A stretch of DNA of 64,000 nt from a virus. Below the pieces are notes generated by a model that was not told where the DNA came from, made no database searches, and saw only the letters and a list, made by a program, of their open reading frames with translations. Every line of letters begins with the position of its first letter. Positions within the stretch are counted from its first letter, which is position 1. The stretch lies in the IMG/VR virus record IMGVR_UViG_3300001533_002564, positions 40,189 to 104,188 of that record, one strand, 5' to 3'. Positions 16,468 to 23,348 of this stretch are shown here, piece after piece. Position numbers and translations under genes: made by a program.

Positions 16468-18138
16468 ATGGGATTTTTAATGGAAAGTGCGGAAGTTGGT
16501 AATATTGGATTAAAACAACTCCGTGAACAAAGAGAAATAACATCTAATCGTTGGGAAAAGATTGGATTGTTAGAAGGATTAGAAGGAAATATAAAAGAAA
16601 ACTGTGCTCAATTATTTGAGAATCAGTTGTCACACATGATTAATGAATCATCAGATTCATCTAATAGTGGTCAATTTGAAACAGTTGCTTTTCCTGTAAT
16701 TCGAAGAGTATTCGCTAAATTATTAGCAAATGATATCGTGTCAGTACAAGCACTTAACTTACCTATTGGTAAATTGTACTATATTAACCCTAAAACTAGT
16801 GTTAGATCAGAACAAACTGCTGGCGTTCATACTTCACCTGATGGTGCTTATGGAAATGCTGCTGATAAAGCTGCTGATTCAAGAACTCAGTTCGAAACTC
16901 GTTCATTATATGATGCATTCTATGCAAGTAAATATGATGAAGAAGGTACATCATTATTTGACCGTTCAAAAGGTGATATTACTGTTGTAACTGGTGCAAC
17001 TACTGCTGAAACATTTACAATTGGTATTGATAAATATGTACAATTAACTGTTGGTGATATTTATAGTACTGCTGAAGGTAAATTGGTAGGACCTACTGGT
17101 GTTCCAATGGACACTGAATCATTCCTTGCTGGTTTAAGAGTTGTTGCTGACGTTGATTTAACTGCTCCAGCACCTTATACTGAAGAAGGTATTACTGCTG
17201 GTGATGCAATTCCTTTCAATGTAAAAGTACAGAAATACGGACAAGCTATTGTAAGTAAAGACGGTGAATTAATTTTACTTGTTGACCTTACTTATGCTGG
17301 TACTAATGGTTATCAACCACTTAGTGGTGCAAGTACACTTAATTTCAGTGTAACTTACAGAACATATTCTGACCTTGAAGAAGACTCAAGAATGGCTGAA
17401 GTTTCCTTCCAATTAGACCAAGTTCCTGTTTCTGTTGAAACACGTAAAATGCGTGCTATGTGGACACCTGAATTAGCCCAAGACGTTTCTGCATTCCATA
17501 ATATCGATGCTGAAGCAGAATTAACTGCTTTATTATCTGAACAAATGGCTGCTGAAATAGACCGTGAAATTCTTCGTGACTTACGTAAAGGTGCTGCTTG
17601 GACTGCTCGTTGGGATTATAATGGACTACGTAAACAAGGTAGTACTAATCAATATTACGGTGTACAAAAAGACTGGAATCAAACATTGGTTACTAAAATC
17701 AATCAGATTTCTGCACAAATTCACAAAGCAACACTTCGTGGTGGTGCATCTTGGGTAGTTGTTTCTCCTGAAGTATCTGCTGTATTTGATGACCTTGAAT
17801 ATTTCCACGTATCTAATGCTGCTCCAGAGCAGGATAAATACAACATGGGTATTGAGAAAATCGGTATTTTAAGTGGACGTTATTTAGTATATCGTGACCC
17901 ATATTCTCCAGCTAACACTGTGCTTATTGGTCATAAAGGAACTAGTATTCTTGAGACCGGTTACATATATGCGCCATACGTTCCTATGCAGTTAACTCCT
18001 GTAATGTATAATCCGTTTGATTTCACACCAATACGTGGTATCATGACTCGTTATGCTAAGAAAATGGTATTAAACCGTTACTATGGTAGAATCTATTGCG
18101 ATGGTCTTCAGACTTTCGGAATCGGTGACTTACAGTAA
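16468..18138 (+). CDS. Major capsid protein (T4 gp23-like)
   Basis: LLENQ-like LFENQ, DIVSVQAL, RKMRAMWTPELAQD..AFHNIDAEAEL, EIDREI, YAPYVP, GIMTRY. Confidence 0.96.
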   Translation: MGFLMESAEVGNIGLKQLREQREITSNRWEKIGLLEGLEGNIKENCAQLFENQLSHMINESSDSSNSGQFETVAFPVIRRVFAKLLANDIVSVQALNLPIGKLYYINPKTSVRSEQTAGVHTSPDGAYGNAADKAADSRTQFETRSLYDAFYASKYDEEGTSLFDRSKGDITVVTGATTAETFTIGIDKYVQLTVGDIYSTAEGKLVGPTGVPMDTESFLAGLRVVADVDLTAPAPYTEEGITAGDAIPFNVKVQKYGQAIVSKDGELILLVDLTYAGTNGYQPLSGASTLNFSVTYRTYSDLEEDSRMAEVSFQLDQVPVSVETRKMRAMWTPELAQDVSAFHNIDAEAELTALLSEQMAAEIDREILRDLRKGAAWTARWDYNGLRKQGSTNQYYGVQKDWNQTLVTKINQISAQIHKATLRGGASWVVVSPEVSAVFDDLEYFHVSNAAPEQDKYNMGIEKIGILSGRYLVYRDPYSPANTVLIGHKGTSILETGYIYAPYVPMQLTPVMYNPFDFTPIRGIMTRYAKKMVLNRYYGRIYCDGLQTFGIGDLQ

Positions 18139-18159: not shown

Positions 18160-18190
18160 AAAAAGAGTTGGAATGTTCCAACTCTTTTTT
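18160..18190 (+). terminator. Terminator after major capsid gene
   Basis: aaaaagagttggaa-tg-ttccaactcttttt. Confidence 0.85.
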
Positions 18191-18198
18191 TATTTTTG
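18168..18198 (+). promoter_or_regulatory. Bacteroidota housekeeping-sigma promoter (TTG-N20-TATTTTTG)
   Basis: Matches -33 TTG / -7 TAnnTTTG; overlaps the terminator; 22 nt before ATG at 18221. Confidence 0.5.
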
Positions 18199-18220
18199 TA
18201 TTGCATTAACACATATCTTT

Positions 18221-19678
18221 ATGGAAGCATATCAATTTAAAATAAGAAAACAAAAATCTCAATCAGAAAAAATTGATTTTGATTTAAATCAAATTACGCT
18301 TAAAAATTCTGAAATTAAATTAATTGATAAAGAAACAGCAAAAAAAATAATTATTGAATATGAATGGTTAGAATCAATGCCATTTATAGTTAAATATTGT
18401 TTTGGTATTTATTTTAACGTTAATAATAAAAAACAAATTGGTGGTGTATTAGTTTTTAGTAATGATTATGCCGATAATACTGGTGTCTGGGATAAATATG
18501 GTTTTACTGATAAATTAATATTATTAAGTAGAGGAGTTTGTTTATGGTGGACACCAAAAAATACAGCATCATATTTTATATCAAAAGCTACTGATTGGTT
18601 AAAAAAGAATACTAAATATAGAATAATAACAGCAACAGTAGACCCTGCTGCTGGTGAAGTTGGAACAATATATCAATCATTAAATTGGAAATATGTTGGT
18701 GTTATGAGTGGAAATTATTATCATAAAAAAGAATCTAAGAGATTTGGAGTCATAATTGATGGAAAATTGAGAGGTAGTAGGTGGTGTAGAAGTAATTTAG
18801 GTTGTATGAAGAAAGAAGTTATTTTATCGAAATACCCTGATGCTAAGTTTGTTCATCAATATAGAAAAAAACGATATTTTTATTTTATCGATACTAAAGC
18901 AAATAATAAAAAACATCTAAATGCAATTAAACATCTTCTTTTACTCTATCCTAAAAGGAATCAAGATATAATTGGTATCATTTATTTAATTAGGAATAAA
19001 GTAAATGATAAAAAATATGTCGGTCAAACAATTCGTGCATTAAGTGATAGAATTAATGACTATAAAAGAGGTTTTGGTAATGATTATTTAAATAATTCAT
19101 TTAATAAATATGGTTGGGATAATTTCGAATTTTCAGTTATTGATTCAGCACAAACTATTGAAGAACTAAATTCGAAAGAAATTAAATACATTTTAAAATA
19201 TAATACAACTAACAAAGAATTTGGATATAATATTGAAATAGGTGGTTGTAATTCAATTCCAAATATCGAAACTTTAGAAAAAATGTCCAAATCTCATTTA
19301 GGTATTAAACAAACAGATGAATGGATTAATAAAAGAATAGCTAAAGCAGGAACTGATAATGCTAAAAAATATGGTAAAATAAAGACTGATGATGAAAAAC
19401 AAGAACTTAGTCTAAAATCACCAAAATATTGGTTAGGTAAAAATCATGATATTGAGACAAGAGAAAAAATAAGTAAAACAAAAAAAGAAAGGGGTTTATC
19501 TGTTAAACAAAAAGAAGTGTTATGTAAGAAAGTATATAAAATAAATATTATTGATAATAATACAATTGATTATGATTCAACAAAACATGCTTCAATAATT
19601 GAAGGTGTAAATCAATCAACAATATCAAGATGGTGTAAAAACAAAAAAACTATTAATGGATTTTTATGGAAATATTAA
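18221..19678 (+). CDS. Mom-like (GNAT) DNA-modification domain fused to GIY-YIG endonuclease with NUMOD/HTH tail
   Basis: LSRGVC..TPKNTASYFIS..IITATVDP..GEVGTIYQSLNWKYVG; then IIGIIYLIRN..KKYVGQT, GYN, NUMOD3-like and HTH repeats; start moved from 18173 (inside terminator) to 18221. Confidence 0.75.
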   Translation: MEAYQFKIRKQKSQSEKIDFDLNQITLKNSEIKLIDKETAKKIIIEYEWLESMPFIVKYCFGIYFNVNNKKQIGGVLVFSNDYADNTGVWDKYGFTDKLILLSRGVCLWWTPKNTASYFISKATDWLKKNTKYRIITATVDPAAGEVGTIYQSLNWKYVGVMSGNYYHKKESKRFGVIIDGKLRGSRWCRSNLGCMKKEVILSKYPDAKFVHQYRKKRYFYFIDTKANNKKHLNAIKHLLLLYPKRNQDIIGIIYLIRNKVNDKKYVGQTIRALSDRINDYKRGFGNDYLNNSFNKYGWDNFEFSVIDSAQTIEELNSKEIKYILKYNTTNKEFGYNIEIGGCNSIPNIETLEKMSKSHLGIKQTDEWINKRIAKAGTDNAKKYGKIKTDDEKQELSLKSPKYWLGKNHDIETREKISKTKKERGLSVKQKEVLCKKVYKINIIDNNTIDYDSTKHASIIEGVNQSTISRWCKNKKTINGFLWKY

Positions 19679-19689
19679 TTTACTTATTT

Positions 19690-19971
19690 TTATTCTTCTA
19701 AAGCAATCCATTTTAATACACTAAATCCTTTATTTAAATTTTCAAATTCATCAACTCTTTTATTCAGAATAAAAAGAACTTGTTCCATATTTTCTTGAAT
19801 ATCTTCTAATGAAATATCTAATTTATCATGAATAATTTTACTAAAAATTTCCCAATTATTTTTAGCTTTATATTCACCATTAAAAATGATTTTTTCATCA
19901 ATAGGATTAAATATTATTCGAATCCTTTTATTCTTGTTTTCTTCACCTTCTATTTTAACAATCCAATCCAT
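19690..19971 (-). CDS. Hypothetical protein
   Basis: 93 aa ORF; start overlaps the end of the upstream HEN. Confidence 0.7.
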   Translation of the reverse strand: MDWIVKIEGEENKNKRIRIIFNPIDEKIIFNGEYKAKNNWEIFSKIIHDKLDISLEDIQENMEQVLFILNKRVDEFENLNKGFSVLKWIALEE

Positions 19972-20773
19972 GATTAACTTTTTTTATCCATTTATAATTA
20001 TTATATATCTGACTTTTACTTATATTACATGCATATCTTAACGCATTATCAGAAGTTTTATTAATTCTTGCTGCTTCTTTGTATGAATCATAGGTTTCTA
20101 CAATACGATTTGTTTTTATATCTATTTTATGAATCTTAATAGATTTTCTCTTATTAGACAAATGTTTTTCAGTTTCTTTAATTTTTCTTATTAAATTTTC
20201 AACATTAAATTCATTTTCATACATCCATATATATTCACCAGATGAATATCTTTTTCCTCTTAAACAATTACTTATTGATGAAATTGAAATATTAGAATAT
20301 ATCGATGCCTTTTTTATGGAAGAAAAATGTTTAATAAATTGACCATCGATTGTAAACATAATAATTTCTTTTCTATTTACAGCATTTTTACCATAATTAT
20401 AATGTTTTTCACCACGACATGCATCACCAATTTTCTTTTTATGACTTTCAGTAAATTCTCTTTTTTTAATAAAATTAATTCCACTACCTCCCTTAGTCAT
20501 ATTTTTTAAATCACTACCGTAGAATGATATCCAATATTTTTCTCTATTATTTAATAGTTCAATGTCAATTTCTTCAATTAATTCGATTATAGGTAATGAA
20601 TTTTTATCTAATAAACTATTAATCCATAAATATATATTTTGATTTTTAGTTTCTTCATACCTACAATTTCTAATGTGCTCATTAAGTCTCTTAATTAAAC
20701 TAAATTTAGTTTGACCAACATATTTAATTTTATTAGTTATAGGGTCTTTTAATGAATATATTTTTCCTTTCAT
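19955..20773 (-). CDS. Free-standing GIY-YIG homing endonuclease (NUMOD3 + NUMOD1)
   Basis: GKIYSLKDP...KYVGQT, REKYWI, FSSIKKAS, YDSYKEAAR; late-motif variant at 20787-20794. Confidence 0.85.
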   Translation of the reverse strand: MKGKIYSLKDPITNKIKYVGQTKFSLIKRLNEHIRNCRYEETKNQNIYLWINSLLDKNSLPIIELIEEIDIELLNNREKYWISFYGSDLKNMTKGGSGINFIKKREFTESHKKKIGDACRGEKHYNYGKNAVNRKEIIMFTIDGQFIKHFSSIKKASIYSNISISSISNCLRGKRYSSGEYIWMYENEFNVENLIRKIKETEKHLSNKRKSIKIHKIDIKTNRIVETYDSYKEAARINKTSDNALRYACNISKSQIYNNYKWIKKVNHGLDC

Positions 20774-20837: not shown

Positions 20838-23348
20838 TTAATCTTCATCTGACCAATTATGGTCATAAATTAAGTCTAAACGACTTCTTGTTATTGCGAC
20901 ATATTCCAAGTTTTTTTCTTGAGCAAATTGCCAAGGTTTTGCTGTTTGCATTGGTAATAAATCTGGTCTGATAATAAAAACTCTATCTGTTTCTAATCCT
21001 TTAATTTTATGTACTGTACTTAATACAATTCCCTGTATTTCATCAGTAAAAATTGTTTTTATTTTATATTTTAAATCCAATATGCTATCAGAAATTCTAG
21101 CAAGAAATAATAATGTCATTACTTTATCTTCAAGTGCTGTATATCCACTATGGTCATTTGGGTTTAAAATGCCTTCTTTTTTTAAATCTTTTCTAAATGA
21201 CTGAAGTTCTGTTTCCCAAAAACTTTTTAATTTTTCAATATTATTAATTTTACCAATTAATTCAATTAAATGAACTCCAATATCACTTCCCTTAATAATT
21301 GCTTTTTTACGTTGTGTAAGAAATTCAAAAAAGAGTTTTACTAGTGGCATTGTTGTTCTACAAAGTACAAAATCACCACTACGTGCTTCTTCTAAAACAT
21401 TACCATCTCTAACACTGCCTTCTGGAGCATCTGGAAGTGCTTTTATATTAGGAACAATCTCTTGCGCTTTTCTAATAACTGCTTGTGAACATCTAAATGA
21501 TACTGAAAGTGGTAATATTTTAGTATTAGGAAATTTCTCAAACCACTGAAAACTTTTTTCATCAGCAGCATTAAAACCATAAATTCCTTGAAAGAAATCT
21601 CCGACACTAATTAATCTACCTTCAAGTTTTTTTGTTGTTCGATTACGTTTTAAAACCTTTTCAATTATTCTAATCTGACAACGATTTAAATCCTGTACTT
21701 CATCAACAAAAACATAGTCTTGTGGAAAAAACCAAATACTATTATCAATTGCAGGTAGAAAAACCATATCTGTATAATCAAATGTTTTTCTATCTGTTGT
21801 CATAAAATCCAATACTTTTAAGATACGTTTAATATCTTTTGGTTTATTAAGTGGAATATCATAGCGTTCTGATATATATGGAATAAATTCTGGTTTTATT
21901 GTTAAAGTCAATCTACATAAATTACAGAGTTTCTTCATGTTATTGAGGTATATCGAAATTTCTTCTTCAGATTTTAATTCATCATCCAATCCCCATGATT
22001 TCGATTTTTTTAAAATAACCTTATCTGCCTTAAATTCATCAAATTGGATTTTATCACCATATTTTCTTTTAATTGCACCCATACCCAAACCATATGTAGT
22101 ATAACATCTAACGTGTTTAGGTAATTTTGTACCAAGTTCTTCTTTAATATGTTTATTAAACGCCAAAAACATTATTGATTTATCAACAGGTAATAATTTA
22201 ACTGCTTCAACAATTGTACTAGTATTGTGTGTTATTGTGAAATCACCTAATAAAAATCTTCCATTACCGTCTAATGTAAAACCATAATATTTTCCAATAC
22301 CAATATTTTTAACCTTAAATCCTGTTCTTAAAACAGATTTTATTTGTTTTCTTGCTTCACATTTCTTTCTAACTAATAAACAAGGTAGATTTTCAAATGA
22401 ACCTGTTATTATTATTCTCCAATAATTACCAATAAAGTTTAGTAATTTAATTCTCCCCTTTTTAGGTATGATATATGCACCAAAACCCAAACTTCTTGCA
22501 AGAAATAATAAATCTTTTGCAAATTCAGTATGTTTTGTTGTAATCTCATAATATTTATTATTTGAATGTCCATCACTATCAATGATTCCAGCCAATAGTT
22601 TTAATCTATTCTCTTTTGAATTAATTAAATAATTTTTAGGTATTGAAAAACTACCATTAGTATTTAAGCATTTCTTAAACTCATCTCTTACTATATTATT
22701 TACTTTTCTCCCGTTAAAATTAGGTGTGGTTAATGAGACAGTTATTAATTTTTTTTGATATTCATTGAATTTTGGTGTAATATTTTTATATTTAATATTA
22801 CCTAAATATTCTAAGATGGGTTTTTCATTAACATTTACTGAAATTGTCGGTGACCCATTTTTTTTTGTTCCATCACCTAACCATAAACCCATTAAATATG
22901 GGTCAATTTTTATTGTCTGTGTCTTAAAATCAACCCCAACTCTTTGTAGTCTTGCATACTTGAAATTACCGTTTGGGTATTTAGGGTAATTTAATTCATT
23001 TAATGGAATATCCAATAATTTCTTTTTTTGTTCATGATGGTGAGTTAAAACATGAACATCATTACATACCCATTCATCCCCTTTTGTTGGTATCACCTTA
23101 AATAAATCACCAAAACCATTATTAGTTTTTAATACTTTTCTCGGTGTTGAATCATCACCAATTAATAAATCACCAATTTTAATATCTTGAACAAATTTAA
23201 TTGTACCATCATACATTAATATTGGAGTATTAATTCCTAGACATTTTCCTGTACCTGCGTATGCCTTAATCAAAATATTTTCAGGTCTTTTTCTCGTGAA
23301 CATGAATATTCTTTCCTGTTCTGGTGTTGCTATAATCATACTATCCAA
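20838..23348 (-). CDS. UvrD/Rep-like SF1 DNA helicase containing an intein
   Basis: AYAGTGK/T Walker A, LAFNK, VDEVQD, VGD..Q.IYGF, SFRCS, STVHKIKGLE, YVAITRS. Confidence 0.92.
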   Translation of the reverse strand: MDSMIIATPEQERIFMFTRKRPENILIKAYAGTGKCLGINTPILMYDGTIKFVQDIKIGDLLIGDDSTPRKVLKTNNGFGDLFKVIPTKGDEWVCNDVHVLTHHHEQKKKLLDIPLNELNYPKYPNGNFKYARLQRVGVDFKTQTIKIDPYLMGLWLGDGTKKNGSPTISVNVNEKPILEYLGNIKYKNITPKFNEYQKKLITVSLTTPNFNGRKVNNIVRDEFKKCLNTNGSFSIPKNYLINSKENRLKLLAGIIDSDGHSNNKYYEITTKHTEFAKDLLFLARSLGFGAYIIPKKGRIKLLNFIGNYWRIIITGSFENLPCLLVRKKCEARKQIKSVLRTGFKVKNIGIGKYYGFTLDGNGRFLLGDFTITHNTSTIVEAVKLLPVDKSIMFLAFNKHIKEELGTKLPKHVRCYTTYGLGMGAIKRKYGDKIQFDEFKADKVILKKSKSWGLDDELKSEEEISIYLNNMKKLCNLCRLTLTIKPEFIPYISERYDIPLNKPKDIKRILKVLDFMTTDRKTFDYTDMVFLPAIDNSIWFFPQDYVFVDEVQDLNRCQIRIIEKVLKRNRTTKKLEGRLISVGDFFQGIYGFNAADEKSFQWFEKFPNTKILPLSVSFRCSQAVIRKAQEIVPNIKALPDAPEGSVRDGNVLEEARSGDFVLCRTTMPLVKLFFEFLTQRKKAIIKGSDIGVHLIELIGKINNIEKLKSFWETELQSFRKDLKKEGILNPNDHSGYTALEDKVMTLLFLARISDSILDLKYKIKTIFTDEIQGIVLSTVHKIKGLETDRVFIIRPDLLPMQTAKPWQFAQEKNLEYVAITRSRLDLIYDHNWSDED
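22224..23243 (-). mobile_element. Cis intein (340 aa) with LAGLIDADG endonuclease, inserted in Walker A
   Basis: GTGK|CLGINTPILMYDG...LLGDFTITHN|T; internal GLWLGDG and LAGIIDSDG motifs. Confidence 0.93.

What the first reader, a model, noticed from the sequence alone, without database searches (positions are those of the whole stretch)
18168..19678. Mom-like DNA-modification enzyme fused to a GIY-YIG nuclease: possible single-polypeptide modify-and-cut element
Seen: the first ~250 aa carry Mom-family GNAT motifs (LSR..., NTASYFIS, TVDP..GEVGTIYQSLNWKYVG), joined without a stop to an intact GIY-YIG + NUMOD nuclease beginning near 18968. Most other HENs here have the late motif; this gene instead has a host-type TTG-N20-TAnnTTTG promoter embedded in the capsid terminator. 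Known: Mu Mom modifies adenine and protects DNA against restriction. Inference: this is either a phage-encoded restriction-modification-like weapon (protect self, cut host or competitor DNA) or a HEN that spreads by carrying an anti-restriction gene.
Basis: partly seen in the sequence, partly recalled or inferred. Interest (0 to 1): 0.8.

Follow-up and report, generated by a model that had tools for sequence, protein, structure and literature searches.

The report
Mom-domain GIY-YIG homing endonuclease gene
Just behind the capsid gene of an uncultured T4-like jumbo phage sits a mobile, selfish DNA-cutting gene fused to a relative of phage Mu's DNA-modifying enzyme Mom; the fusion is real, old and widespread, but nobody has tested what the Mom part does for it.

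Summary
One ORF (most likely 18221-19678, 485 aa) encodes a complete Mom domain, a 6-residue linker, an I-TevI-like GIY-YIG domain and a NUMOD/HTH tail. It is not a read-through: more than 100 protein clusters share the architecture at 46-77% identity, and the catalytic residues of both domains are invariant.

The gene behaves as a free-standing homing-endonuclease cassette.
- **Sporadic presence.** Of 58 non-redundant relatives, 14 carry Mom-GIY, 13 carry a Hef-type GNAT fused to the same GIY-YIG half, 5 carry other combinations and 26 carry nothing.
- **Exact insertion site.** The insert lies between the capsid terminator and the stop codon of the convergent neighbouring gene.
- **Linked capsid allele.** A silent capsid-gene base (17958; C in 23/25 carriers, 2/23 non-carriers) marks a candidate target or immunity site.

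Mom or Mom-like GNAT domains are also fused to HNH and REase nucleases. This suggests a functional link, which Iyer et al. 2021 predicted for Mom-REase fusions, but no test exists. The restriction-modification "weapon" reading is neither supported nor excluded.

This scan found the same gene type earlier on other DNA (e1-5677034, e1-5948138). I rate it a new variant of a known kind, of moderate interest.

The parts
16468..18138 (+). Major capsid protein gene (gp23-type). It is the conserved left flank of the cassette.
   Evidence: 556-aa ORF. Relatives are 73-91% identical.
17945..17980 (+). Candidate homing target or immunity site inside the capsid gene (codons for LETGYIY). The key silent base is C at 17958, in the Thr codon ACC.
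   Evidence: C occurs in 23/25 cassette carriers and 2/23 non-carriers (Fisher 4e-9). In 9 independent pairs on the capsid DNA tree it goes the same way in 8.2 and the opposite way in 0 (sign test p about 0.008). It is the top-associated column of the whole gene (0.83, next 0.58), and 17952, 17967 and 17976 also rank high. Its function as a target is inferred.
18160..18189 (+). Intrinsic terminator of the capsid gene. In cassette-less relatives it also ends the convergent gene.
   Evidence: 13-bp stem, 4-nt loop and a T-run. The hairpin is conserved in relatives.
18168..18198 (+). Promoter-like TTG-N20-TAnnTTTG element (TTG 18168-18170, TATTTTTG 18191-18198).
   Evidence: Read from the sequence. 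A TAnnTTTG box follows the terminator in 12 of 21 relatives. The pattern is not enriched in the window. Function is not shown.
18221..19678 (+). Mom-GIY-YIG fusion gene (485 aa, stop codon included).
18221..18955 (+). Complete Mom-type GNAT domain (aa 1-245). It ends in the YPK motif that also ends Mu Mom.
   Evidence: Pfam Mom. A profile built on this domain hits PDB 8bv8 at E 8.9e-7 over chain positions 28-232 of 232. Foldseek's top hit is 8bv8. R104, S117, D141 and Y151 are invariant.
18974..19255 (+). GIY-YIG catalytic domain (aa 252-345).
   Evidence: Pfam GIY-YIG. Fold match to I-TevI 1mk0. Y255, Y266, G268, R277, E320 and N337 are invariant.
19256..19525 (+). Helical linker with NUMOD3-type motifs (aa 346-435).
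   Evidence: NUMOD3 is below threshold in this protein (10.7 bits) and above threshold in relatives (P0123 31.2, P0133 36.4). Model confidence is low here.
19526..19675 (+). C-terminal HTH-type DNA-binding tail (aa 436-485). This is the fastest-evolving segment.
   Evidence: phrog_20162 and a CII-like HTH match. Mean pairwise identity is 0.36, against 0.63 for Mom. It is replaced by another tail in the variants of about 575 aa.
19690..19971 (-). Convergent 93-aa gene of unknown function. It is the conserved right flank of the cassette.
   Evidence: In cassette-less relatives its stop codon abuts the capsid terminator. It has no Pfam match.

Best explanation
This is a free-standing, I-TevI/Seg-like GIY-YIG homing-endonuclease cassette. 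It consists of its own promoter-like element plus one ORF, inserted exactly between the capsid-gene terminator and the convergent downstream gene. The nuclease carries a complete, probably active Mom-type GNAT domain at its N-terminus.

**Shown:**
- The architecture is real and both domains fold as expected.
- The fusion is conserved, and both catalytic centres are under purifying selection.
- Presence is sporadic at one site.
- The cassette's history is independent of the adjacent capsid gene.
- A silent capsid-gene allele is tightly linked to cassette presence.

**Inferred:**
- In mixed infections the nuclease cuts the capsid gene of cassette-less relatives near 17945-17980.
- Repair from the carrier genome then copies the cassette in (homing, or marker exclusion).
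- Carriers escape cutting through the silent change at that site.
- The Mom domain, tethered by the same DNA-binding tail, acylates adenines in DNA, probably from an aminoacyl-tRNA as Mu Mom does. This would either shield further sites from the fused nuclease or from host restriction, and so keep the selfish gene tolerable or useful. This last step is the least supported.
For: - **Architecture and folds:**
- **Conservation:** more than 100 clusters at 46-77% identity with full coverage. Mom R104/S117/D141/Y151 and GIY-YIG Y255/Y266/R277/E320/N337 are invariant. dN/dS is 0.1-0.4 for Mom and 0.14-0.7 for GIY-YIG.
- **Mobility:** of 58 non-redundant relatives, 14 have Mom-GIY, 13 have X-GIY, 5 have other combinations and 26 have none. 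The closest relative, L086 (capsid 91% identical), is among the empty ones. The insertion junction is exact. At least 13 gains or losses of the cassette are needed on the capsid tree. Carriers of the two types are interleaved on the capsid tree with high support, whereas the GIY-half tree needs only 2 changes of N-domain type. Against its nearest Mom-GIY carrier, the window has capsid 90%, fusion 65% and helicase 82% identity.
- **Target-site signal:**
- **Functional link:** Mom or Mom-like GNAT domains are joined to three nuclease folds. These are GIY-YIG (here), HTH-HNH/EndoVII-Mom in more distant phages at the same locus, and REase in Hef-like proteins.
Against: - No activity of either domain has been measured.
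- Mu's essential R151 is not conserved here (A/M/S/D at position 143), and Mu H58 aligns with an invariant Glu. The chemistry or the donor may therefore differ.
- If a silent change already protects the target, the Mom domain is not needed for immunity at that site, and its role stays open.
- The capsid-gene association could in part be a co-conversion footprint rather than the recognition site itself.
- dS is near saturation in this AT-rich DNA, so the dN/dS values are rough.
Confidence: 0.72

Rival explanations
1. Single-chain restriction-modification-like weapon (the Iyer et al. 2021 model for Mom-REase fusions). Mom modifies adenines across the phage genome, and the GIY-YIG domain degrades unmodified host or superinfecting DNA. 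Homing plays no part.
For: - Modification and nuclease domains sit in one chain, and both active sites are conserved.
- Mom/GNAT domains are repeatedly joined to three nuclease folds.
- The gene lacks the late motif and has a host-type promoter-like box, which is compatible with early expression.
- The idea is stated in PMC7824862.
Against: - The architecture is that of long-site homing enzymes: I-TevI-like catalytic domain, NUMOD linker and HTH tail.
- 26 of 58 close relatives lack any such cassette at this locus, and the gene comes and goes at one exact site.
- A silent allele in the neighbouring gene tracks the cassette.
- The alternative allele uses a different GNAT that lacks the Mom serine.
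Confidence: 0.2
2. A homing endonuclease with beneficial cargo. The Mom domain acts genome-wide as an anti-restriction function for the phage, independently of the fused nuclease, and merely travels with it.
For: - Mu Mom protects DNA from many restriction enzymes (PMC13219725).
- Most members of the Mom family are stand-alone proteins (about 130 of the best 150 representatives).
- Mom is also fused to DNA methyltransferases, which are modification partners.
- It is the only Mom domain in the 104-kb record.
Against: - A stable 6-residue in-frame junction, kept over a divergence down to 46% identity, and repeated independent fusions to nucleases argue for physical coupling.
- Relatives do without it.
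- Only about a third of the genome is available.
Confidence: 0.3
3. The Mom/GNAT domain is a non-catalytic module used by the nuclease, for example for dimerisation or for base-flipping DNA recognition.
For: - Mu Mom is a dimer with an HTH-like DNA-binding insertion.
- Mu R151 and H58 are not conserved here.
- The Hef-type GNAT lacks the Mom serine.
Against: - R104, S117, D141 and Y151, the equivalents of Mu R111, S124, D149 and Y159, are invariant across the family.
- The Mom segment is the most conserved part of the protein.
Confidence: 0.1

Closest known systems
Hef (phage U5) and 'Hef-like' free-standing homing endonucleases of T4-like and jumbo phages
   Same: - Both are free-standing selfish nuclease genes placed next to conserved genes.
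- Both join a nuclease to a Mom-like GNAT domain. The Hef-type domain's best PDB match is also Mu Mom.
- Close relatives of this phage carry the Hef-type GNAT on the very same GIY-YIG half at the same site.
- The Hef-like gene of PA5oct also follows the major head gene.
   Different: - Hef-like proteins use zinc ribbons plus a Vsr/REase-type nuclease, with the GNAT at the C-terminus (AR9 g265).
- Here the nuclease is GIY-YIG and the GNAT is N-terminal.
- Here the GNAT is a canonical Pfam Mom, not the Hef-type domain (hhalign probability 1.9%).
Mom-REase fusions of group 2 (T4-like) jumbo phages, predicted to be 'momylation'-restriction units (Iyer et al. 2021, PMC7824862)
   Same: A Mom-family GNAT is fused to an endoDNase in T4-like jumbo phages. 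The functional idea, protect self and cut others, is the same.
   Different: The nuclease fold differs (GIY-YIG, not REase). The GIY-YIG form is not mentioned in that paper. The data here point to homing behaviour rather than general restriction.
Phage Mu Mom (PF25680; PDB 8bv8), the Gly-tRNA(Gly)-dependent adenine N6 modifier
   Same: - The whole fold is shared, including the HTH-like insertion and the C-terminal PYPK motif.
- The equivalents of R111, S124, D149 and Y159 are conserved.
   Different: - Sequence identity is about 16%.
- R151 is absent and H58 is replaced by Glu.
- The domain is fused to a nuclease.
- Donor and target sequence are unknown.
I-TevI and the Seg free-standing GIY-YIG endonucleases of T4
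   Same: - The catalytic domain matches (28% identity, rmsd 1.9 A to 1mk0).
- Both are modular: a linker, then a DNA-binding tail.
- Both sit between conserved genes and occur sporadically.
   Different: This protein carries an extra 245-aa enzymatic domain at the N-terminus. Its target is not mapped.

Membership tests
Mom family (PF25680, Mu Mom-type GNAT) | Profile match above the curated cut-off over the whole domain | tested here: met
   78.4 bits against a cut-off of 27.1, profile positions 3-196 of 202. The domain profile hits 8bv8 at E 8.9e-7 and reaches the chain's C-terminus.
Mom family (PF25680, Mu Mom-type GNAT) | GNAT fold with the Mom-specific HTH-like insertion | tested here: met
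   Foldseek's top hit is 8bv8 (E 5e-10, TM 0.71). The alignment is continuous through the part of the chain that should hold the insertion (Mu 175-209), apart from one 10-residue gap. The model has helices at 186-204.
Mom family (PF25680, Mu Mom-type GNAT) | Catalytic R111 and S124 (essential in Mu), plus D149 and Y159 | tested here: met
   R104, S117, D141 and Y151 are invariant in 28 sequences. They were mapped through the 8bv8 alignment and the residue roles given in PMC13219725.
Mom family (PF25680, Mu Mom-type GNAT) | R151 (R151A is dead in Mu) and H58/Y59 | tested here: not met
   R151 aligns with the variable position 143 (A/M/S/D). H58 aligns with the invariant E48 and Y59 with W49.
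Mom family (PF25680, Mu Mom-type GNAT) | Transfers glycine from Gly-tRNA(Gly) to N6 of adenine in dsDNA | not testable with these tools
   Needs biochemistry (PURE-system assay, LC-MS).
Free-standing GIY-YIG homing endonucleases (I-TevI/Seg type) | GIY-YIG catalytic domain with intact GIY, YIG, Arg, Glu and Asn positions | tested here: met
   Pfam 40.2 bits against 22.6. Y255, Y266, G268, R277, E320 and N337 are invariant. Fold match to 1mk0 at rmsd 1.9 A. The assignment of residues to motif positions rests on my own knowledge of the motif order.
Free-standing GIY-YIG homing endonucleases (I-TevI/Seg type) | Modular NUMOD/HTH DNA-binding tail | tested here: inconclusive
   NUMOD3 is below threshold in this protein (10.7 bits against 20.4) and above threshold in relatives. 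An HTH is predicted.
Free-standing GIY-YIG homing endonucleases (I-TevI/Seg type) | Sporadic presence or absence at a fixed site between conserved genes | tested here: met
   Of 58 relatives, 14 have Mom-GIY, 13 have X-GIY and 26 have none. The junction is exact.
Free-standing GIY-YIG homing endonucleases (I-TevI/Seg type) | Cuts the cassette-less allele near its own locus and is copied in by repair | not testable with these tools
   There is only indirect evidence: the silent allele at 17958 tracks the cassette.
Hef-like homing endonucleases | Zinc-ribbon repeats plus a Vsr/REase-type nuclease, with a C-terminal Hef-type GNAT domain | tested here: not met
   This protein has no REase or zinc-ribbon match. 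Its GNAT is a canonical Mom, not the Hef-type domain. The Hef-type domain is absent from the 104-kb record.
Single-chain restriction-modification enzymes | The nuclease is blocked by the modification made by the fused domain | not testable with these tools
   Needs cleavage assays on modified and unmodified DNA.

The most novel reading that the evidence does not exclude
The Mom domain is aimed by the endonuclease's own DNA-binding tail. It installs an aminoacyl-tRNA-derived adenine adduct at or near the nuclease's recognition sites. The fusion would then be a self-immunising homing element, in effect a one-chain restriction-modification unit built from a tRNA-dependent GNAT instead of a methyltransferase. 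The same logic would explain why Mom-like domains ride on GIY-YIG, HNH and REase homing nucleases in hundreds of phages.
Probability: 0.22. Interest if true: 0.8.

Novelty: new variant of a known kind. Interest (0 to 1): 0.5.

Why it matters
Homing endonucleases joined to Mom-like GNAT domains are very common in large phages. The Hef-type domain alone matches 373 phage records at 920 places. No one has tested what the GNAT part does.

Mom's chemistry, glycine transfer from charged tRNA to DNA adenine, was solved only in 2026. This family provides three useful things:
- a canonical Mom domain on a small, well-understood nuclease scaffold;
- natural allelic controls at the same locus (Mom-GIY, Hef-GNAT-GIY and empty site);
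- a defined candidate target in the capsid gene.

Together these make the question of whether modification gives self-immunity to a selfish nuclease directly testable. If true, it would be a new kind of restriction-modification logic, and a possible source of targeted DNA-acylating tools.

Tried and rejected
- **Near-identical phage record.** A search for a near-identical cultured phage found none. No INPHARED record holds the fusion at 80% coverage or more.
- **Contig look-ups.** I took synteny from IMG/VR loci instead.
- **Mom versus Hef-type domain.** The profile-profile comparison gave only 1.9% probability. Their kinship rests on the fold alone.
- **Host-type promoter.** The stricter TTTG-N17-21-TAnnTTTG form is not enriched in the window. 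I rate the promoter plausible, not shown.
- **One-off read-through or assembly artefact.** Rejected.
- **Vertically inherited core gene.** Rejected.
- **Original Hef paper.** PMC1275590 is not held, so Hef's properties come from reviews.
- **First association script.** It had an indexing error and was corrected.
- **Complex prediction.** Not run, because the report makes no binding claim.

Full report
**What is there.**
The window is the last 64 kb of a 104-kb IMG/VR virus record. CheckV rates it about 32% complete, which implies a genome of roughly 325 kb, and its G+C is about 25%. An uninterrupted ORF runs 18173-19678. Its first ATG lies in the loop of the capsid-gene terminator hairpin at 18160-18189, and homologues are 485-490 aa long. 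I therefore take the ATG at 18221 as the start, which gives 485 aa.

Pfam finds a full-length Mom domain (PF25680, 78.4 bits) and a GIY-YIG domain (PF01541, 40.2 bits). PHROGs agrees. A profile of the N-terminal domain matches the crystal structure of Mu Mom (8bv8) right up to Mom's C-terminal PYPK motif. In this protein YPK (243-245) is followed by about six residues and then the first GIY-YIG strand. An AlphaFold2 model (pLDDT 81) has Mu Mom as best PDB match for the N-terminal domain (E 5e-10, TM 0.71). For the middle domain the best match is the I-TevI catalytic domain (TM 0.78, rmsd 1.9 A).

**The fusion is not a one-off.**
A search among proteins of similar length returned 423 relatives. 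More than 100 clusters (at 90% identity) have the same Mom + GIY-YIG architecture with 46-77% identity and full coverage, on contigs of up to 340 kb.

In an alignment of 28 of them:
- The Mom residues R104, S117, D141 and Y151 are invariant. They correspond to Mu R111, S124, D149 and Y159, of which R111 and S124 are the essential, universally conserved pair (PMC13219725).
- The GIY-YIG positions Y255, Y266, G268, R277, E320 and N337 are also invariant.
- Two Mu residues are not kept. R151 aligns with a variable A/M/S/D, and H58 aligns with an invariant Glu.

Mean pairwise identity is 0.63 for Mom, 0.59 for GIY-YIG, 0.55 for the NUMOD linker and 0.36 for the HTH tail. Rough dN/dS values are below 1 for both enzymatic domains and reach about 1 in the tail. 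A variant of about 575 aa carries a different tail.

**It behaves as a mobile cassette.**
In relatives the gene lies directly after the capsid gene and before a convergent 93-aa gene and a UvrD-type helicase.

I anchored a survey on the capsid protein. It gave 58 non-redundant relatives (capsid 73-91% identical) with enough downstream DNA:

| Content of the slot after the capsid gene | Relatives |
|---|---|
| Mom-GIY | 14 |
| 'X'-GIY | 13 |
| Other GNAT/GIY combinations | 5 |
| Nothing | 26 |

- In 12 of the 26 empty relatives the capsid gene and the helicase are less than 1 kb apart.
- The closest relative, L086 (capsid 91% identical), is empty.
- In empty genomes the stop codon of the convergent gene abuts the terminator T-run. 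In this window the cassette sits exactly there, as a promoter-like box plus the ORF, with only 11 nt between the two stop codons.
- On the capsid tree the carriers of the two cassette types are interleaved with high support. At least 13 gains or losses are needed. The tree of the GIY-YIG halves needs only two changes of N-domain type.
- Against its nearest Mom-GIY carrier the window has capsid 90%, helicase 82% but fusion protein only 65% identity.

**A candidate target.**
Across the whole capsid gene, the column most associated with cassette presence is the silent third base of a Thr codon at 17958. It is C in 23/25 carriers and 2/23 non-carriers (Fisher 4e-9). In 9 phylogenetically independent pairs it goes the same way in 8.2 and the opposite way in none (sign test p about 0.008). 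Neighbouring silent positions 17952, 17967 and 17976 also rank high.

The cluster lies about 263 nt upstream of the endonuclease start, in the codons for the conserved LETGYIY motif. This is the pattern expected of a resistant target allele in carriers of a free-standing homing endonuclease. It may be compounded by co-conversion. Both Mom-GIY and X-GIY carriers share it. The two carrier exceptions, L097 and L120, have the alternative tail.

**The alternative N-terminal domain, and other fusions.**
Domain 'X' has no Pfam match. It matches the C-terminal part of PHROG 'homing endonuclease' families. It folds as a GNAT whose best PDB match is again Mu Mom.

It is the domain annotated as 'Hef-like homing endonuclease' in 373 phage records. 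In AR9 it follows zinc ribbons and a weak Vsr/REase match. In PA5oct such a gene also follows the major head gene.

In more distant phages (capsid 51-56% identical) the gene after the capsid gene is HTH + HNH/EndoVII-like + Mom. Among the best 150 representatives of the Mom family about 17 are multi-domain. Their partners are GIY-YIG, HNH-type, REase or N6/N4 DNA methyltransferases.

**Comparison with what is known.**
- Iyer et al. [quoted passage not shown] They proposed a momylation-restriction logic. GIY-YIG does not occur in that paper.
- Hef has been regarded as a unique class of homing endonuclease since 2005.
- The 2026 Mom paper does not mention fusions.
- I found no paper on Mom with a homing endonuclease.

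This scan has met the same gene type on other genomes, with the same conclusions, including a silent capsid-gene base that tracks the fusion. I obtained my results before reading those notes.

**Verdict.**
The finding is a real, conserved Mom-GIY-YIG homing-endonuclease cassette. It is a new variant of the known pairing of a nuclease with a Mom-like GNAT. The recurrent pairing with three nuclease folds argues that the GNAT does something for the nuclease. The data neither show nor exclude that it provides modification-based self-immunity, and the silent target allele suggests that classical immunity is also at work.

Noticed in passing
window 19955-20773 (-): A second free-standing GIY-YIG-type endonuclease gene (272 aa; NUMOD3 and NUMOD1 matches). 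It overlaps the start of the 93-aa gene. Among the first 80 related loci, matches turned up only in L022 and L024, upstream of the scaffold and capsid genes rather than at this spot. It looks like a separate insertion.
   Followed up: partly
window 20838-23348 (-): The UvrD-type helicase (836 aa) carries an intein with Hint and LAGLIDADG homing-endonuclease domains. Relatives have helicases of about 500 aa without it. Three selfish nuclease elements therefore lie within 5.2 kb after the capsid gene.
   Followed up: partly
L105 (IMGVR_UViG_3300031578_000005), 90-2743 nt after the capsid gene: Two Mom-GIY genes lie in tandem, one with the standard tail and one of the alternative-tail type.
   Followed up: no
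L027, L029, L033, L039, L046 (capsid 51-56% identical): At the same position after the capsid gene there is a 460-490-aa protein with an N-terminal HTH, an HNH/EndoVII-like nuclease and a C-terminal Mom domain. This is the reverse order and a different nuclease fold.
   Followed up: partly
P0138, P0140, P0149, P0216: Mom domains fused to N6/N4 DNA methyltransferase domains. These are single-chain double modifiers.
   Followed up: no
L021:8887-9258, L023, L024, L050 and others: A gene of about 120 aa with a weak YunG-like match (phrog_12251) precedes and overlaps the X-GIY gene in many relatives. It was not seen before any of the Mom-GIY genes surveyed.
   Followed up: no
window 17955: G at the third position of the Glu codon, next to the key site, occurs in 85% of Mom-GIY carriers, 42% of X-GIY carriers and 26% of non-carriers. 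It creates GAGAC, which fits my recollection of Mu Mom's S-A-S-N-Y site. The numbers are small and this Mom's specificity is unknown.
   Followed up: no
None precedes the Mom-GIY gene, although relatives L006 and L022 do have one there.
   Followed up: partly
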